A DNA stretch of 64,000 bases, from NCBI GenBank assembly GCA_031549385.1, contig JAVBPW010000001.1, positions 352,001 to 416,000 of the forward strand, given 5' to 3'. The notes beneath the pieces were generated by a model that did not search any database, had not been told where the DNA came from, and was given only the letters and a program-made list of their open reading frames with translations. Made by a program: the position numbers and the translations under genes. This DNA comes from Alphaproteobacteria bacterium. Its GTDB lineage: Bacteria; Pseudomonadota; Alphaproteobacteria; Rs-D84; SZUA-605. Positions 1,737-36,863 of the stretch are shown here, in pieces. The first letter of the stretch is position 1. The number at the start of each line of letters is the position of its first letter.

Positions 1737-1930
1737 TTGACAAAATGAAAATAGATTACTATGTTATGCATAGGTTTAGTATAAAAATTATAAATTACTT
1801 ACTACAAACAAAATTATAAAAATATTTTTTAGGTTTGATTATTATCGGGGTCCACGGGGACCCTTCTTTGACAAAACAGTTCATGTTTGTTAAGTTTATG
1901 TTAGGGGTTGCACGTGCAGCCCTTTTTTTA
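1737..1930 (+). ncRNA. Putative small RNA unit(s) carrying anti-leader sequences
   Basis: TTGACA(1737)-17-TATGTT; no plausible + strand gene; hairpin GGGTCC/GGACCC 1848-1863 + TTCTTT; second TTGACA(1868)-17-TAAGTT; hairpin GGGTTGC/GCAGCCC 1905-1922 + T7. Confidence 0.55.
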
Positions 1931-23019: not shown

Positions 23020-23042
23020 TTTTGTATCCTCATAATTTTTAG

Positions 23043-23324
23043 GCGAAATATTATAAGCCGGATTCTGTACATTTGCATGCGACAATCATTTATCTTGAAT
23101 TACTGTTACCAGTAATTTCTTTGCGACCTACCACGAAGCAGTTGGGATTCCTGTAGCTTCTTATTTGGTCTTGCTCCAAGCAGAGTTTACCGCGTTTCAC
23201 CCTAACTTAATAGGCTCGTCTCTGTGGCACTTGTCCTCAGCTTGCGCTGGGTGGGTGTTACCCACTGCTTTATCCCATTGGAGTCCGGACTTTCCTCACC
23301 ATAGTGCGATTGTCCATATTTCGC
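23043..23324 (-). ncRNA. rnpB: RNase P RNA, compact (~282 nt)
   Basis: Minus strand contains GAGGAAAGTCCGGACT, AGTGCCACAGA, GGGTGAAA, GGTAAACTC, GGAGCAAG, ACAGAATCCGGCTTA; P1 GCGAAATAT/ATATTTCGC. Confidence 0.96.
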
Positions 23325-23362
23325 TATACTAACATAATATAAGATTAACATTTTTTCAAGGA

Positions 23363-27482: not shown

Positions 27483-27587
27483 AGTTAGTTATTGTATAAA
27501 AACTTTTGTTTTCTTTCAAGGATTTTTTTCGGCTTGATAAATGTCTCAAATTTTGGTATAATATTTATATAATTATAGGAGAAAAAG

Positions 27588-27854
27588 ATGAAAAAATTAC
27601 TTTTTGCTTTGGTTGTTACTGTATCAACAGTATCATTTGCTGAAATGGAACCAAATTATTATGATATTTCAGAAGCATATGGATCATTACAAAGATTACG
27701 TGCTCAATGTGGAGATTCTAAACCAGGTTGTGCTGGGGTTTGCTCACAAGGGATTAATTATTCAATGAGCCAAATGAGTAGCGGGGCTAATGTTTCTCCT
27801 GAAGTTGCAGCACAATTAAAACAATATTGGTGGTCTTGCTTAAATTCACTATAA
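27588..27854 (+). CDS. Small secreted Cys-containing protein
   Basis: SD AGGAG, signal peptide ending SFA, 4 Cys. Confidence 0.75.
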   Translation: MKKLLFALVVTVSTVSFAEMEPNYYDISEAYGSLQRLRAQCGDSKPGCAGVCSQGINYSMSQMSSGANVSPEVAAQLKQYWWSCLNSL

Positions 27855-27975
27855 TTTAAGTAGGTTTATAAAGTTAGACGGTCTTTTTTAAAAGGCTGTT
27901 TTTTGTTGAAATTTAAATAGTGGGTTTTATAATCAGGTGTGATATTAAAATTTCAAACCTAAAATTATATATGTT

Positions 27976-28269
27976 ATGCTTAGATTGTTAAATATAGGAT
28001 CTTTGATCCAAGCAGCCTTGATTGTTTGCTTTTTTGTTTTTTTAAACAATCCTGAGATTGTTTTTTTTAAAAATGAATTTGTACAATGGGGAATATTTTT
28101 ATTTTTTCTGTTTTTCCTCATTTTTTATTTCAAAAAAGCTAATCATGAAGTTGATGATGATACGTATTTGGGATTGTATTTTTTTGTTCTTGTTGTATGG
28201 TTTGTTATTATGGGGTCATTTGCAACAAATAGTGGTGGAATTGATTATTTTGATTATCCTTATCACTGA
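27976..28269 (+). CDS. 3-TM hypothetical protein, paralog 1 (cassette class)
   Basis: TATAAT 27928, leader TTCAAACCTAAAA 27952-27964, terminator GGCTGG/CCAGCT at ~28278-28300. Confidence 0.75.
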   Translation: MLRLLNIGSLIQAALIVCFFVFLNNPEIVFFKNEFVQWGIFLFFLFFLIFYFKKANHEVDDDTYLGLYFFVLVVWFVIMGSFATNSGGIDYFDYPYH

Positions 28270-28369
28270 TTTTTTAAAAGGCTGGGTTTCCAGCTTTTTT
28301 TATTGTAATTTTGCCATTAGTTTTTATAATCAAGTGTGATATTAAAATTTCAAACTTAAAACTTAAAAT

Positions 28370-28663
28370 ATGAATAAATATCTCTTAATGCTGGGTTGTT
28401 TTACCCTTATAGCATTTATTGTTATTTTCTTTTATTTCATTAATGTAGATTCAGGTATTTTTAAAGGTAATTTTTTTTTACATGCGTCTGCAATATGTTT
28501 TTTCTTTTTCATCGTTGTATATATTCGAATTACTAGGAATTTGTTCAATGATGGAATGTGGGTTGGAATCTATATATTGCTTTTGGTTATATGGTTTGTT
28601 TTAATTGTATCATATAACGGAGTGGAAACAATTATGATTGAAGTAAAAGAATTGTTCAAATAA
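28370..28663 (+). CDS. 3-TM hypothetical protein, paralog 2 (cassette class)
   Basis: Near-identical promoter/leader to paralog 1; shared GxY...LVxWFV motif; terminator 28666-28684. Confidence 0.75.
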   Translation: MNKYLLMLGCFTLIAFIVIFFYFINVDSGIFKGNFFLHASAICFFFFIVVYIRITRNLFNDGMWVGIYILLLVIWFVLIVSYNGVETIMIEVKELFK

Positions 28664-28708
28664 AAAGGCTGGAATTTCCAGCCTATTTTTTATTTAAATC
28701 AGCTATTA

Positions 28709-29543: not shown

Positions 29544-30281
29544 TTAATCATAGTCAACTTTTACAAAATATAAACCTTGCGCTGGGGCTGTTATTCCTGC
29601 TTTAGTTCTGTCTTTTGATTCTAATACTTCTTTTACCCATGAAGGTTCTTGTTTTGATAAACCTACATCAACTAATGTTCCTACTATGTTTCTTACCATG
29701 TGGTGCAGAAATGATTTTGCAGAAATGTCTATGTAAATGTATTCTCCATTTTTTGTGATGTTTATATAATCTATTGTTTTTACTGGTGATAGGGCAGTAC
29801 ATTGTGATGAGCGAAATGATGAGAAATCATGATTTCCTAATAAGTAATTTGCTGCTTTTTGCATTTGGTCTATATTTAAATCTTGAGAAATACGCCAAAC
29901 TCTGTTTTTATCTAATGCTTCTTTTGGAGTGCGATTAAGAATTATATATTGATAATATCTTTTCTTTGAAGAAAAACGAGCGTGAAAGTCTTCTGATACT
30001 TCTTCACAGTTTATTACTGAAATATCGTCTTTTACTAAATGAGCATTGATTGCCATCATTAATTTATATGGTTCAAATTGTTTTTCTATATCAAAGTGAG
30101 CTACTTGGCCTTTTGCATGAACACCTGTGTCTGTTCTGCCGCTGCCAAAAACTTGTGTTTCTTGACCTGTTATGTTGAAAATAGCAGTTTCTATGGTGCC
30201 TGCTATGGTTCTTAGGCCGTCTTGCTTTTGCCAACCATAGTAGTTTGTACCATCGTATTCTATTGTTATCTTGTATCTCAT
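29544..30281 (-). CDS. truA: tRNA pseudouridine(38-40) synthase
   Basis: YDGTNYYGWQ, GRTDTGVHA, FHARFS, FLHHMVR, TAPAQGL. Confidence 0.97.
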   Translation of the reverse strand: MRYKITIEYDGTNYYGWQKQDGLRTIAGTIETAIFNITGQETQVFGSGRTDTGVHAKGQVAHFDIEKQFEPYKLMMAINAHLVKDDISVINCEEVSEDFHARFSSKKRYYQYIILNRTPKEALDKNRVWRISQDLNIDQMQKAANYLLGNHDFSSFRSSQCTALSPVKTIDYINITKNGEYIYIDISAKSFLHHMVRNIVGTLVDVGLSKQEPSWVKEVLESKDRTKAGITAPAQGLYFVKVDYD

Positions 30282-30342
30282 GAAGGTCATAATGACAAAA
30301 AAGTCCTTAAAAAGCAAGAAAATAAGAAAAATTTGGTTGTTG

Positions 30343-30417
30343 TTGACTCGGTGGTGATTTTGTGATATAATGTGATTCGTTAAAAAGATGTATTTGGGCC
30401 ATTAAGGCTCATTTTTT
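30343..30417 (+). ncRNA. Array unit 1: promoter + ~40-nt transcript + terminator
   Basis: TTGACT(30343)-17-TATAAT(30366) with TG; hairpin TGGGCC/GGCTCA + T6. Confidence 0.55.
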
Positions 30418-30418
30418 A

Positions 30419-30523
30419 TTGACTTAGTTAAAGTTTTGAAGTATAATGATTTTTAGCATAGCAAAAGCAGTAAGTTCATATATATATATAAATAGGTTTG
30501 ACCTCCGTACGCGGGGGTTTTTT
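30419..30523 (+). ncRNA. Array unit 2: ~70-nt RNA antisense to a leader + start codon
   Basis: TTGACT(30419)-17-TATAAT(30442); AGTTCAT-(AT)n-AAATAGGTTTGA; hairpin ACCTCCG/CGGGGGT + T tract. Confidence 0.6.
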
Positions 30524-30604
30524 ATTGCCTATTGACAAGTGTTTGTTATTGTGATATATTCTAAGGACAGTTAAATAAATAATAAACCAAAAAACAAACC
30601 GCGT

Positions 30605-30727
30605 ATGTTTATACGAGCGCCCCTGTGGGCAGAATTCCAAAACCAAAAATGTAGCAGTCGCGCCAATATGCAAGCTACAAACAAGACGAACAGAAGTATT
30701 TCGACGTCACCGGTGAATTCGATTTAA
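30605..30727 (+). CDS. Array unit 3: 40-aa small ORF (or ncRNA)
   Basis: TTGACA(30532)-17-TATATT; A/C-rich leader, TATG start, MFIRAPLWAEFQNQKCSSRANMQATNKTNRSISTSPVNSI; terminator CCCAGCC/GGCTGGG 30732-30760. Confidence 0.45.
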   Translation: MFIRAPLWAEFQNQKCSSRANMQATNKTNRSISTSPVNSI

Positions 30728-30779
30728 TCTACCCAGCCATGAGATAGGCTGGGATTTTTTTATTAAAATTTTAAGGGTA

Positions 30780-30990
30780 TTGACTCGTTACCTGATTCGT
30801 GATAGAATCTTATTTACATTTAATTAGTAAACTAAACCTAAAAATAAACGTATGAAATAAAAAGCGGCTGGGCCGCAGAGAAAAAATTAAAAAATAAATA
30901 ATAAAAAACTTAAAACAAGTGCGGATTAGCACCAATTGAGCTTAAGCTCCAATAAAAACATAGAGGCGCCATTAGTGCGCCTTTCTTTTT
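30780..30990 (+). ncRNA. Array unit 4: leader + ATG-AAA-TAA minigene + hairpins
   Basis: TTGACT(30780)-17-TAGAAT; AAACCTAAAAA 30834; ATG AAA TAA 30852-30860; terminator AGGCGC/GCGCCT + T. Confidence 0.55.
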
Positions 30991-31074
30991 GGCTAAATTT
31001 TGACTTTTACATAAGTAACTTGACAAAAGTAAATAATCCCTTATATTGTTGGTATAAACTTAAAAAATATACAT

Positions 31075-31251
31075 ATGGACAAAAAAATTTATGGGGCAAC
31101 AATAGACCCCGATGGTGCAAAATGTTGCACCGAAACTGAAAGACCTCGTAATGAAGGTGTAGTAGCAAAGACATTGGAAGATGTTTTGCACTTTGAAGGA
31201 AAGGTTCCTGACCACTATCTGTGGTTAAGTATTTACAGGGTAAAGCAGTAG
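31075..31251 (+). CDS. Array unit 5: 58-aa hypothetical protein (not in ORF track)
   Basis: TTGACA(31020)-16-TATATT; ATAAACTTAAAAAA leader; MDKKIYGATIDPDGAKCCTETERPRNEGVVAKTLEDVLHFEGKVPDHYLWLSIYRVKQ; terminator 31276-31307. Confidence 0.6.
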   Translation: MDKKIYGATIDPDGAKCCTETERPRNEGVVAKTLEDVLHFEGKVPDHYLWLSIYRVKQ

Positions 31252-31310
31252 TGGAGTGTGAGTTTTAACTCTGTTTAAGGTGTCTTTTTTAGGCACCTTA
31301 TTTTTTTGCC

Positions 31311-31525
31311 TTGAATGGTTTTGGTATTTATGATATAGTGTTGTAACTTTTTACGATTAAACTAGCCCTTTGGGCTGCTTAAAGATCCTTATGGGATCGA
31401 TTACTTGCCAGCAATGGTAAGACTACGAATTTTATTTAAAATTAAATTTAATTAATCAATGAGAAAACAATTTTAATTGTTTTATTTATTGGCAAAGAAA
31501 GAGGCTCTTTTGGAGCCTCTTTTGA
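31311..31525 (+). ncRNA. Array unit 6: multi-hairpin RNA
   Basis: TTGAAT(31311)-17-TATAGT; hairpins at 31364, 31384, 31404, 31464; bidirectional terminator 31498-31523 shared with dnaN. Confidence 0.5.
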
Positions 31526-31527
31526 TT

Positions 31528-32640
31528 TTATCTTCTTAATGGCATTAACACATATAAGAAATTGTTATTCTTTGGCTCTTGAATGATACATGGAGCAAGT
31601 CCAGTTGAGAATAAGAATTCAACTTCATCTGTTTTTATTTGTGATGCTGCTTCAAGAAGGAATTTTACTTTGAATGTTGATTCTAATGCTACATCACTGT
31701 TAAATTCTACTTCAATTTCTTCTGTACCACTTCCAAGTTCACTTGCACTTGCAGATAGTGTTAGTTTGTTTGTTTTTACAGACATCTTAATATCTTTGAA
31801 TTTATCGTTTGATACTGATGAGATTCTGTCTACACCTGCTGTGAATAACTTGCAGTTTACTTTTAATACGTTCTTGTTTCCTTTTGGAATTACAACACCA
31901 TAGTCTGGAAATTTTCCGTCAATTAACTTTGATGTCATTACTAAATTCTTAAATGAAAATCTTGTTTTTGTTTCTGATACTTCAATTGTTATATCTTCTT
32001 TGTCATTTTCAATTATTTTATTTAGTTCATATATTACTTGTTTTGGAATTATAATTCCTGTCATTCCTTTTGCGCCTTCTGGAGCTGGAATTTCAAATAA
32101 TGCTAAACGTGAACCGTCTGTTGCAACTGCGCGTAATACTGTTTGGCTATTCTTTTCAGTTGTATGCAAATAAATACCATTTAATTGATAACGTGTTTCT
32201 TCTGTTGAAATAGCAAATTTTGTTCTTTCAATTAATGATAGTAAATCTTCTGGAGATAATTTGAATTTGTGTGGAAGATTTGCTCCTGCCATCATTGGGA
32301 AATCATCAGCTGGTAATGTTGGTAATTTGAATTCTGATTTTCCAGCTTTGATTATGATTTCAGTTCCTTTTAATTCAAATTTGATTTCTGAATCTTCTGG
32401 AAGCTTTCTTACAATGTCATATAATGTATGAGCAGGGATTGTTATCTTTCCTTCTTTTTCTACTTTAGCCGGAACTTTTTCAATTAATTCTAAATCAACA
32501 TTTGTTGCTGTAATTGTTAGTTCATTTTCTGCTACAAATTTTGCATTTGAAAGAATTGGAATAGAACTCTTCTTTTCTGCAATTGAAGCTATGTGTGAGA
32601 GGCTTTTTAAAAAGCTTTGGCGATCTACTGTGAATTTCAT
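31528..32640 (-). CDS. dnaN: DNA polymerase III beta sliding clamp
   Basis: SIPILSN, FAISTEETRYQLNG, VATDG, SKLIDGKFPDY, YVLMPL. Confidence 0.98.
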   Translation of the reverse strand: MKFTVDRQSFLKSLSHIASIAEKKSSIPILSNAKFVAENELTITATNVDLELIEKVPAKVEKEGKITIPAHTLYDIVRKLPEDSEIKFELKGTEIIIKAGKSEFKLPTLPADDFPMMAGANLPHKFKLSPEDLLSLIERTKFAISTEETRYQLNGIYLHTTEKNSQTVLRAVATDGSRLALFEIPAPEGAKGMTGIIIPKQVIYELNKIIENDKEDITIEVSETKTRFSFKNLVMTSKLIDGKFPDYGVVIPKGNKNVLKVNCKLFTAGVDRISSVSNDKFKDIKMSVKTNKLTLSASASELGSGTEEIEVEFNSDVALESTFKVKFLLEAASQIKTDEVEFLFSTGLAPCIIQEPKNNNFLYVLMPLRR

Positions 32641-36743: not shown

Positions 36744-36863
36744 ATAACTCTATGAAAATAGAGTTATTTTTATTTAGTATTCTCGAAAGAATTTCATAAG
36801 AATTACTTGACAAATAATAAAAATACACTATATTATAAGTATAAACTTAAAAAATATATTAAA
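36744..36863 (+). promoter_or_regulatory. Terminator-promoter-leader module, homologous to 47600-47712 (minus)
   Basis: 28-bp identical hairpin, TTGACAAATAATAA, CACTATATTA, ATAAACTTAAAAA. Confidence 0.8.

What the first reader, a model, noticed from the sequence alone, without database searches (positions are those of the whole stretch)
30343..31525. Array of six head-to-tail promoter-terminator mini transcription units between truA and dnaN
Seen: -35 boxes at 30343, 30419, 30532, 30780, 31020 and 31311, each with a -10 at 16-17 nt and each closed by a GC hairpin + T tract, with the next promoter starting 1-30 nt later. Payloads differ: ~40-nt RNA, anti-leader RNA, 40-aa ORF, minigene RNA, 58-aa ORF, multi-hairpin RNA. 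Promoters 1 and 4 look homologous (TTGACTCG...TGATT..GTGATAkAAT). There is no direct repeat, so CRISPR or repeat finders would miss it: the repeating unit is architecture, not sequence. Inference: an sRNA/micro-gene cassette array.
Basis: seen in the sequence. Interest (0 to 1): 0.85.

Follow-up and report, generated by a model that had tools for sequence, protein, structure and literature searches.

The report
Six back-to-back mini transcription units
A 1.2-kb gene-free gap in a small bacterial genome holds six tightly packed promoter-to-terminator units that most likely make short RNAs and one tiny protein, and one of those RNAs looks built to pair with a start-region motif shared by about 50 genes.

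Summary
All six -35/-10 pairs and six + strand hairpin/T-tract terminators are at the stated coordinates. On the + strand of 30283-31527 I count five promoter(>=10/12)-to-terminator units. In 4000 dinucleotide-preserving shuffled strands the maximum was one (98 of 4000). No other place in this 931-kb genome has three or more abutting units. None was found in 961 kb sampled from three relatives.

The region has no Rfam, tRNA, Pfam, phage or plasmid match, is not oriC, and is not conserved in 40 relatives. No transcript data cover it.

Unit 5 carries the genome's own 5' leader motif plus an orphan 58-aa ORF. Unit 6 is strongly structured (z -6.7). Unit 2 is specifically complementary to the start regions of about 50 leader-motif genes (0 of 80 shuffles reach it). 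The 40-aa ORF has non-coding-like codon usage. The promoter 1/4 "homology" is not significant.

Best reading: a lineage-specific cluster of independent sRNA and micro-gene units, an extreme form of this genome's one-gene cassette style. The main rival is a graveyard of decayed cassettes. It is a new variant of a known kind, of moderate interest.

The parts
29544..30282 (-). truA (tRNA pseudouridine synthase), the left flank. It is divergent from unit 1. The ORF list extends it to a TTG at 30317; the ATG at 30282 is the likely start.
   Evidence: Pfam PF01416, E 2.2e-46; ORF list; - strand read
30343..30417 (+). Unit 1. Promoter 30343-30371 (11/12, TGn) and terminator 30395-30411 plus T6. The predicted RNA is about 40 nt (30378-30417). 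It holds a 5-codon micro-ORF at 30388-30405 that runs into the terminator stem.
   Evidence: (hairpin -8.5 kcal/mol, z -2.1)
30419..30526 (+). Unit 2. Promoter 30419-30447 (11/12) and terminator 30500-30519. The predicted RNA is about 72 nt with no ATG. Segment 30474-30499 is a colinear antisense image of leader-class start regions, running from the leader core through the AU run to AUGAAC.
30532..30764 (+). Unit 3. Promoter 30532-30560 (11/12, TGn) and terminator 30732-30753. The predicted RNA is about 196 nt with an A/C-rich 5' tail. The 40-aa ORF at 30605-30727 has non-coding-like codon usage.
   Evidence: score -0.30; z -2.3. A DNA-run contig carries C>A at 30708, which turns codon 35 into a stop (my reading).
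30780..30992 (+). Unit 4. Promoter 30780-30808 (10/12, TGn) and terminator 30962-30984. The predicted RNA is about 177 nt and A-rich. It has weak leader-like motifs (30844 and 30881), a two-codon minigene ATG AAA TAA at 30852-30860, and four short GC hairpins.
   Evidence: repeat D3; PWM 12.1 and 13.7 bits; z -2.1
31020..31308 (+). Unit 5. Promoter 31020-31047 (11/12), an exact copy of the genome's 16-nt leader motif at 31054-31069, the orphan 58-aa ORF at 31075-31251, and terminator 31276-31300.
   Evidence: score 0.20, ambiguous; PWM 24.0 bits
31311..31531 (+). Unit 6. The weakest promoter, 31311-31339 (9/12, TGn). The predicted RNA is about 186 nt with five hairpins. Its terminator 31497-31523 abuts the dnaN stop codon and is shared with dnaN.
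   Evidence: z -6.70, 0 of 200 shuffles. A G-U pair in the third hairpin and one at the terminator base favour the + strand (my reading).
31528..32640 (-). dnaN (DNA polymerase III beta clamp), the right flank. It is convergent with unit 6.
   Evidence: Pfam PF00712, PF02767 and PF02768. An RNA-run contig covers 31578-32000.

Best explanation
The truA-dnaN gap holds six independent sigma-70-type transcription units on the G-rich strand, which is presumably the leading strand. Each unit has a near-consensus promoter and its own intrinsic terminator, and each terminator's T tract runs almost into the next promoter. The units are the shortest and densest example of this genome's habit of packaging lineage-specific genes as one-gene promoter-leader-payload-terminator cassettes.

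The payloads are mixed. Unit 5 is an mRNA for an orphan 58-aa protein behind the genome's hallmark non-Shine-Dalgarno 5' leader (AUAAACUUAAAAAAUA). Units 1, 2, 4 and 6, and probably unit 3, are non-coding RNAs of about 40 to 196 nt. Unit 2 most likely acts in trans, without Hfq. Its unstructured 26-nt segment pairs across the leader core, the AU run, the start codon and the second codon of leader-class mRNAs, and so would block their translation initiation.

Shown: the signals, their statistics, their uniqueness in the genome, the folding, and the complementarity. Inferred: that the units are transcribed, that unit 2 represses, and any role for units 1, 3, 4 and 6.
For: The six promoter and terminator pairs are at the stated coordinates. 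I count 5 units against at most 1 in 4000 shuffled strands. Four of the genome's 118 sites >=11/12 fall in this 1.2 kb.

Such sites predict real promoters in this genome. 86 of the 118 lie outside crude genes, which is 12.8% of the genome. Of the 82 outside the array, 56 face a co-oriented gene start within 350 nt.

It is the only run of three or more abutting units in the genome; there are two other pairs. In relatives, 0, 0 and 1 pairs were found in 239, 400 and 322 kb.

All signals are on one strand, with 0 - strand sites >=10/12. That strand has positive GC skew.

Unit 6 folds with z -6.7, unit 3 with -2.3 and unit 4 with -2.1.

Unit 5 has an exact copy of a leader 16-mer that occurs 8 times exactly and about 50 times by PWM before start codons.

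Unit 2 has mean duplex energy -11.10 with 50 leader-class windows and -8.50 with 150 other start regions. Dinucleotide shuffles give +0.21 +/- 0.50, and 0 of 80 reach the observed difference. Reverse and sense controls give +1.0 and +1.35. Sub-segments each score 0 of 40. Among 31 ORF-less solitary units genome-wide, only unit 2 and one other show this preference.

No paralogous or relative-derived coding remnant was found in a six-frame search.
Against: There is no expression evidence. The one RNA run that holds this organism has a contig over dnaN only, and a second run holds nothing; that is uninformative for short RNAs.

There is no conservation to test. The spacer gives only short AT-rich hits in 40 relatives, and dnaN in the nearest relatives (56-59% identity) is followed directly by other genes.

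The 58-aa ORF has no credible homologue, and its codon score is ambiguous.

Promoter 6 matches only 9/12.

Unit 2's duplexes are AU-rich and modest in energy. In a first test against all 846 start regions it did no better than shuffles. Its antisense signal could be a fossil of an inverted cassette start.

Units 1 and 4 look like a leader plus start codon plus early stop, which is what a decayed cassette would leave.
Confidence: 0.5

Rival explanations
1. Cassette graveyard. The gap once held several small orphan protein cassettes of the genome's usual kind. Internal deletions and stop mutations destroyed most ORFs. The promoters and terminators are leftovers that still fire, and the RNAs have no function. 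Only unit 5 may still code.
For: Head-to-tail one-gene cassettes with small ORFs are common in this genome. Unit 4 has a leader-like motif followed by ATG AAA TAA, and its start region resembles unit 5's (repeat D3). Unit 1 has a 5-codon ORF that runs into its terminator. The 40-aa ORF has non-coding-like codon usage, and a variant contig puts a stop in it. Nothing is conserved in relatives.
Against: The promoters and terminators are near-consensus (four at 11/12, six clean hairpins), while the payloads of units 2, 4 and 6 keep no trace of a reading frame. Under neutral decay both should erode together. No coding remnant matches any paralogue or sampled relative. Unit 6 folds far better than chance. 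Unit 2 has a specific antisense match to leader-class start regions.
Confidence: 0.27
2. Transcriptional punctuation. The products do not matter. A wall of strong + strand promoters and two-way hairpins between dnaN and truA stops read-through on the - strand and insulates the two genes by head-on polymerase traffic.
For: dnaN and truA are both on the - strand with the array between them and opposed to them. Four terminator-like hairpins also read on the - strand inside the array. No strong - strand promoter for truA was found in the gap.
Against: One terminator would be enough. Six matched promoter-terminator pairs, a canonical leader plus ORF, and an antisense match to distant genes are not needed for insulation. 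No comparable structure separates other co-oriented genes in this genome.
Confidence: 0.07
3. Regulatory remnant of a phage, plasmid or other mobile element inserted between truA and dnaN.
For: The region is lineage-specific and absent from relatives. Its ORFs are orphans.
Against: blastn found no match in 50,697 phage or 72,556 plasmid records. There is no PHROG hit for the two ORFs and none in viral contigs. The repeat search shows no flanking repeats and the tRNA scan no tRNA in the gap. GC is 0.31-0.37, not below the genome's 0.30-0.33. Unit 5 uses the host genome's own leader motif.
Confidence: 0.05
4. Chance clustering of promoter-like and terminator-like words in AT-rich non-coding DNA.
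For: The genome has about 30% GC, and weak promoter-like matches are common: 27 found against 19.3 expected.
Against: None of 4000 shuffled strands had 2 or more units, against 5 observed. At most 2 sites >=11/12 appeared in shuffles, against 4 observed. All signals are on one strand.
Confidence: 0.02

Closest known systems
Condensed five-sRNA cluster of Staphylococcus aureus Newman (srn_9342 to srn_9346; PMC5496865; passages read)
   Same: Several unrelated short RNA genes are packed into less than 1 kb. Three are contiguous on one strand. One member encodes a small peptide. The function is unknown, and the authors call the organisation unusual.
   Different: In that cluster two members are cis-antisense partners on the other strand, and one transcript starts inside a coding gene and reads through a first terminator. 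Here all six units are on one strand, each has its own near-consensus promoter and terminator, and no - strand promoter was found. That cluster was shown by northern blot and RACE. This one is only predicted.
Tandem 'sibling' sRNA genes (review PMC4211561, search listing and start of abstract only; the examples LhrC1-5, OmrA/B and PrrF1/2 are recalled)
   Same: Adjacent short RNA genes lie head to tail, each with a promoter and a Rho-independent terminator.
   Different: Siblings are sequence homologues. Here the payloads share no similarity beyond the promoter and terminator signals.
sRNAs that pair with a shared ribosome-binding motif of many mRNAs (C-rich sRNAs such as RsaE/RoxS against Shine-Dalgarno sequences; recalled, not searched)
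   Same: One short unstructured segment is complementary to a translation-start element shared by many mRNAs. This is the logic proposed for unit 2.
   Different: The target here is a lineage-specific, A-rich, non-Shine-Dalgarno leader plus the start codon. There is no sequence relation to those sRNAs, and the action is untested.
Promoter islands of E. coli (PMC3661553 and PMC7054387; search listing and start of abstracts only)
   Same: An unusually high local density of promoter-like sites in DNA without ordinary genes.
   Different: By those abstracts, and partly by recall, the islands are associated with horizontally acquired, transcriptionally inactive genes whose promoter-like sequences arise by AT accumulation and are bound by H-NS. 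Here the sites are discrete, spaced 76 to 291 nt apart, all on one strand, each matched to a terminator, and the GC is not depressed.
Two-codon minigenes of phage lambda (bar regions; recalled, not searched)
   Same: Unit 4 has ATG AAA TAA behind a leader-like motif.
   Different: An order-0 estimate from base composition (my own, no call) expects this 9-mer dozens of times by chance in a 30% GC genome. Nothing else ties unit 4 to peptidyl-tRNA drop-off.

Membership tests
Sigma-70 promoter plus intrinsic terminator transcription unit | -35 and -10 hexamers close to TTGACA and TATAAT with a 16-18 nt spacer | tested here: met
   Scores are 11, 11, 11, 10, 11 and 9 of 12. Spacers are 17, 17, 17, 17, 16 and 17 nt. 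TGn is present at four of the six.
Sigma-70 promoter plus intrinsic terminator transcription unit | GC-rich hairpin followed by a T tract on the same strand, downstream of the promoter | tested here: met
   Six of six units. My scanner found five; the sixth was cut off by the region boundary.
Sigma-70 promoter plus intrinsic terminator transcription unit | Discrete transcripts with matching 5' and 3' ends | not testable with these tools
   Only assembled contigs of RNA runs were available, and they cover only dnaN 31578-32000.
Sibling or tandem homologous sRNA array | Sequence homology among the tandem copies | tested here: not met
   The repeat families are only promoter or terminator signals at about 70%. 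All-against-all blastn-short of the payloads found nothing beyond 14-nt A-rich words.
Known RNA families (Rfam 15), tRNA, tmRNA | Covariance-model or ARAGORN match | tested here: not met
   No hit at gathering score. The best sub-threshold hit has E 0.44. No tRNA or tmRNA lies in the gap. 6S RNA was not found anywhere in the genome, but units 3, 4 and 6 do not fold as a rod with paired ends.
S. aureus-type condensed sRNA cluster | Cis-antisense partner genes on the opposite strand | tested here: not met
   0 - strand promoter-like sites >=10/12 and 1 at 9/12 in 30283-31527.
Type I toxin-antitoxin locus | Small hydrophobic membrane peptide plus an antisense RNA to its mRNA | tested here: not met
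   The 58-aa and 40-aa products are hydrophilic with no hydrophobic stretch (sequences). The unit 2 to unit 5 duplex is -14.6 kcal/mol, which is unexceptional within the leader class (mean -11.1, best -21.5).
Promoter island | Overlapping promoter-like sites on both strands in AT-enriched DNA | tested here: not met
   The sites are discrete and on one strand. GC is 0.31-0.37 against about 0.30 for the genome.
Replication origin (oriC) next to dnaN | Cluster of DnaA boxes, adjacent dnaA, a turn in GC skew | tested here: not met
   One box-like 9-mer (1 mismatch or fewer) lies in the gap. Cumulative skew has no extremum here. dnaA is on another contig.
Trans-acting antisense sRNA (unit 2 only) | Unstructured seed complementary to target start regions beyond what composition explains | tested here: met
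   The difference is -2.60 kcal/mol for 50 leader-class against 150 other start regions. 0 of 60 mononucleotide and 0 of 80 dinucleotide shuffles reach it.
Trans-acting antisense sRNA (unit 2 only) | Target regulation shown, with compensatory mutations | not testable with these tools
   Needs a bench test.

The most novel reading that the evidence does not exclude
The array is the control locus of a lineage-specific translation regulon in an Hfq-less, CsrA-less reduced genome. About 50 mostly orphan genes are marked by a non-Shine-Dalgarno 5' leader that starts at the transcription start site. The array's RNAs act on that leader. Unit 2, together with a second unit at window 1737-1924, would be a master anti-leader repressor. 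Unit 4 would be a leader-mimic decoy carrying a two-codon minigene. Unit 5 would be a leader-class micro-protein. On this reading the locus is also a place where promoter-terminator 'expression slots' turn cassette fragments into new riboregulators.
Probability: 0.12. Interest if true: 0.8.

Novelty: new variant of a known kind. Interest (0 to 1): 0.5.

Why it matters
If the units are transcribed as predicted, this would be one of the densest known clusters of unrelated bacterial small transcripts: six in 1.2 kb, each with its own promoter and terminator. It sits in a 0.93-Mb genome in which no Hfq or CsrA was found.

It also points to something wider in this organism. Many unrelated genes share a conserved, non-Shine-Dalgarno 5' leader, and two short RNAs are complementary to it. 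That makes a testable case for RNA control of a whole class of lineage-specific genes in an uncultured lineage.

If instead the units are dead cassettes, the locus shows how promoters and terminators outlive the genes they served.

Tried and rejected
Known RNA families: Rfam at gathering score and at E<=10 gave nothing usable. ARAGORN gave nothing in the gap. I asked whether a unit could be the missing 6S, SRP RNA or tmRNA. An SRP-like hit lies elsewhere (33.9 bits), tmRNA-like pieces lie elsewhere, and 6S was not found. The folds of units 3, 4 and 6 are not 6S-like.

Conservation: blastn of the spacer against 40 relatives gave only short AT-rich hits. The dnaN neighbourhoods of the nearest relatives lack the gap. 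No close relative was found in metagenome contigs (best 57% identity).

Homologues of the 58-aa ORF:
- 0 of 120 genomes of the order.
- No Pfam hit and no PHROG hit.
- No word-sharing protein of 31-102 aa among 5.8 billion clusters.
- ESM Atlas best score 0.81, below the usable range.
- Viral contigs: none.
- HMMER against 1.84 billion representatives gave 3 hits, all giant repeat proteins. The best (E 3e-13) sums ten near-identical fn3 repeats that each score about 25 bits. I treat it as not significant.

Pseudogene remnants: six-frame tblastn of the gap against 617 kb of relatives' loci gave one hit at E 0.43. Against the own genome it gave none at E<=0.1. This database was small.

Mobile element: no blastn match in phages or plasmids.

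oriC: rejected.

Promoter 1/4 homology: not significant.

Shared 9-mer: a 9-mer common to unit 2 and the window-1737 unit occurs 10 times in the genome against 11.6 expected, so it is not evidence on its own.

First target scan: units 1 and 2 against all 846 crude start regions showed no enrichment over shuffles. Only the later, class-specific test was positive, and only for unit 2.

Leader PWM on the - strand of the array: 0 hits at 8 bits or more. The unit 2 antisense match is therefore partial, not a clean inverted copy.

Expression: the RNA run X2 has one 709-nt contig, and it covers dnaN only. X3 has nothing. The lack of cover over the array says nothing either way.

Supplementary files of papers were not consulted.
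Full report
**Setting**

The window is G000:C7:352001-416000 of a 931,143-bp, 8-contig genome with about 30% GC that is 97% complete. Its nearest named relatives by DnaN are metagenome-assembled genomes labelled Alphaproteobacteria or Rickettsiaceae, at only 56-59% identity. The one DNA run that holds the stretch is recorded as an invertebrate gut metagenome and may be the source of this assembly.

The finding lies in a gene-free gap. On one side is truA, on the - strand, with Pfam PseudoU_synth_1. Its likely start is the ATG at 30282. On the other side is dnaN, also on the - strand, at 31528-32640, with three beta-clamp domains.

Yes. The consensus scan puts + strand promoter-like sites at exactly the six stated -35 positions. 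They score 11, 11, 11, 10, 11 and 9 of 12, with spacers of 17, 17, 17, 17, 16 and 17 nt, and four have an extended -10 TGn. Six + strand terminator-like hairpins each follow one promoter. The gaps from stem end to the next -35 are 7, 12, 26, 35 and 10 nt.

In my own scan of 30283-31527 the + strand has 5 promoter(>=10/12)-to-terminator units and the - strand has none. Of 4000 dinucleotide-preserving shuffled strands, 3902 had none and 98 had one. None had two or more. The gap holds four sites >=11/12, while shuffles never gave more than two (3 of 4000).

The whole genome has only 118 sites >=11/12 on both strands. These sites predict real promoters in this genome:
- 86 of the 118 lie outside crude genes, which make up only 12.8% of the genome.
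- Of the 82 that lie outside the array, 56 face a co-oriented gene start within 350 nt.

**Is it unique?**

Genome-wide I found 89 promoter-to-terminator units, 44 of them mostly intergenic. Only this locus has three or more abutting units, meaning a gap of 80 nt or less. Two other places have a pair.

In samples of three relatives I found 0 pairs in 239 kb of G001 (same family), 0 in 400 kb of G005, and 1 in 322 kb of G002. These are samples, not whole genomes.

**What it is not**
- There is no Rfam family at gathering score, and none better than E 0.44 below it.
- There is no tRNA or tmRNA.
- It is not oriC. There is one DnaA-box-like word, no turn in GC skew, and dnaA is on another contig.
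- There is no match in phage or plasmid records or in viral contigs.
- There are no internal repeats beyond about 70% similarity over the promoter and terminator signals.
- The proposed homology of promoters 1 and 4 is not significant. Their spacer similarity is 10 of 17, and 3.9% of all pairs of 350 intergenic promoter-like sites reach that.
- A six-frame search found no coding remnant related to the sampled relatives or to the rest of the genome (the database was small).

**Context that changes the reading**

This genome packages many lineage-specific genes as one-gene cassettes laid head to tail. Each has a strong promoter, a conserved 5' leader, a small ORF and a terminator. Examples are:
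- C7:91.2-92 kb and C5:31.6-33 kb.
- Window 27.5-28.7 kb, where two paralogous 97-aa membrane ORFs (34% identity, E 5e-11) each have their own promoter, leader and hairpin.

The leader is a 16-mer, ATAAACTTAAAAAATA. It begins about 6 nt after the -10 and ends 3-20 nt before the ATG. There are 8 exact copies. A PWM built from 30 instances finds 50 windows outside the array with an ATG close behind. The genes behind it are unrelated to each other. The motif is nearly absent from the sampled relatives: 15 copies with one mismatch or fewer in this genome, against 0-1 in each relative sample.

The array is therefore the shortest and densest case of a genome-wide style.

**The six units**

- **Unit 1** is predicted to make an RNA of about 40 nt. 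It is 17 nt plus the terminator, with a 5-codon ORF that runs into the stem.
- **Unit 2** (about 72 nt) has no ATG.
- **Unit 3** (about 196 nt) has a 40-aa ORF whose codon score is -0.30. That is below all 330 real-gene segments, and 67% of spurious ORFs score higher. A contig of the DNA run differs from the window at one base in 2101, at 30708 C>A. By my reading this turns codon 35 into a stop. The RNA folds with z -2.3.
- **Unit 4** (about 177 nt) is A-rich with four short GC hairpins (z -2.1). It has weak leader-like motifs and ATG AAA TAA. Its start region resembles unit 5's (repeat D3).
- **Unit 5** has an exact leader copy and an orphan 58-aa ORF with codon score 0.20. That is the 8th percentile of real segments, and 20% of spurious ORFs score higher. 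The clearly real 97-aa paralogues score lower still, so this score is a weak judge.
- **Unit 6** (about 186 nt) forms five hairpins with z -6.70; 0 of 200 shuffles fold as well. G-U pairs favour the + strand. Its terminator abuts the dnaN stop codon. Its promoter is the weakest of the six.

**The anti-leader test**

A first scan of units 1 and 2 against all 846 crude start regions showed nothing beyond shuffles. I then asked a narrower question: does any unit prefer the leader-class start regions?

Only unit 2 does. Its mean duplex energy is -11.10 kcal/mol with 50 leader-class windows and -8.50 with 150 others, a difference of -2.60.
- Mononucleotide shuffles reach this in 0 of 60.
- Dinucleotide-preserving shuffles average +0.21 +/- 0.50 with a minimum of -0.95, and reach it in 0 of 80.
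- The reversed and the sense versions give +1.0 and +1.35.

The signal sits in 30474-30499. This segment reads as an antisense image of leader core, AU run, start codon and a common second codon. Its sub-parts each beat 40 of 40 shuffles. The best target is an 89-aa gene just after dnaA, at -21.5 kcal/mol. Segments of units 1, 3, 4 and 6 show no such preference.

Among 31 ORF-less solitary units genome-wide, only unit 2 (-2.60) and one other fall below -1.1. The other is at window 1737-1924 and scores -3.5; 0 of 40 dinucleotide shuffles reach it.

Caveats:
- The duplexes are AU-rich and modest in energy.
- The leader PWM does not score the - strand of unit 2.
- The signal could be the fossil of an inverted cassette start. 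That would still yield an antisense RNA if promoter 2 fires.

**Mechanism, with odds**

I put about 0.5 on the following. There are six independently transcribed units on the G-rich strand. They make four or five short non-coding RNAs and one micro-protein mRNA. Unit 2 acts in trans on leader-class start regions without Hfq or CsrA, since neither was found in the genome; Rho is present.

The main rival, at about 0.27, is a graveyard of decayed cassettes. Units 1 and 4 look like it. However, near-consensus signals around payloads that keep no trace of a reading frame, the unit 6 fold and the unit 2 match all argue against plain decay. The two readings can also be combined, with riboregulators arising from cassette fragments.

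Insulation of dnaN from truA (0.07), a mobile-element remnant (0.05) and chance (0.02) are weaker.

**What is missing**

There are no transcript data and no close relative. The RNA-run contigs cover only dnaN, and such contigs would not be expected to hold RNAs of 40-200 nt.

**Comparison with what is known**

The closest published case I found is the condensed cluster of five unrelated sRNAs within about 650 nt in S. aureus Newman. One of them encodes a peptide, and the authors call the organisation unusual (PMC5496865; passages read). That cluster has cis-antisense pairs and a read-through transcript. This one is single-stranded, with six self-contained units.

Tandem sibling sRNAs differ because they are homologues (PMC4211561; search listing and start of abstract only). 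E. coli promoter islands differ as I recall them: their sites are overlapping, on both strands and silent (PMC3661553 and PMC7054387; search listing and start of abstracts only).

I searched the paper library with the terms and found no description of an array like this one. That is not proof that none exists.

**Verdict**

The feature is real and statistically strong. It is a new variant of a known kind. Interest is moderate (0.5), because function and expression remain predictions.

Noticed in passing
genome-wide; in the window at 31054-31069, 36841-36856 and 747-762 (two mismatches): A conserved promoter-plus-leader module sits in front of about 50 unrelated, mostly orphan genes without a Shine-Dalgarno sequence. 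It consists of TTGACAAAT, then cTATATT, about 6 nt, the 16-mer ATAAACTTAAAAAATA, and 3-20 nt before the ATG. There are 15 copies with one mismatch or fewer in this genome, against 0-1 in each sample of three relatives.
   Followed up: partly
window 1737-1924 (+): A second ORF-less promoter-to-terminator unit whose RNA is specifically complementary to leader-class start regions. The difference is -3.5 kcal/mol, and 0 of 40 dinucleotide shuffles reach it. The antisense element sits just before its terminator, as in unit 2.
   Followed up: partly
window 27534-28700 (+): Three small-gene cassettes of 88, 97 and 97 aa, each with its own promoter. The two 97-aa products are paralogous membrane proteins (34% identity, E 5e-11) with similar leaders and terminators. 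None has a Pfam or PHROG match.
   Followed up: partly
window 23038-23325 (-): A bacterial class A RNase P RNA of only 288 nt that matches the full 367-position model at 205 bits.
   Followed up: no
G000:C5:75586-76068 and G000:C5:74546-75243: dnaA lies on another contig, far from dnaN. A 698-nt gap upstream of it has no promoter-like or terminator-like site and may be the origin.
   Followed up: no
whole genome G000: No Hfq, CsrA or 6S RNA was found in a 97%-complete genome, while Rho is present. The SRP RNA match is below the family cut-off (33.9 bits, C2:47903-47991). ARAGORN called 37 tRNAs and no tmRNA; Rfam gave only partial tmRNA-like pieces near C7:155667-155897.
   Followed up: no
G000:C7:347774-347823 (-), outside the window: Another leader followed by a micro-ORF of 11 codons that spans its own terminator hairpin, like unit 1. 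This hints at ribosome-sensitive termination.
   Followed up: no
protein P0003 (2368 aa; fn3 x21 plus an autotransporter domain): The phmmer E-value of 3e-13 for the 58-aa query came from summing ten near-identical repeats that each score about 25 bits. It is a reminder that repeat proteins inflate whole-sequence E-values.
   Followed up: yes
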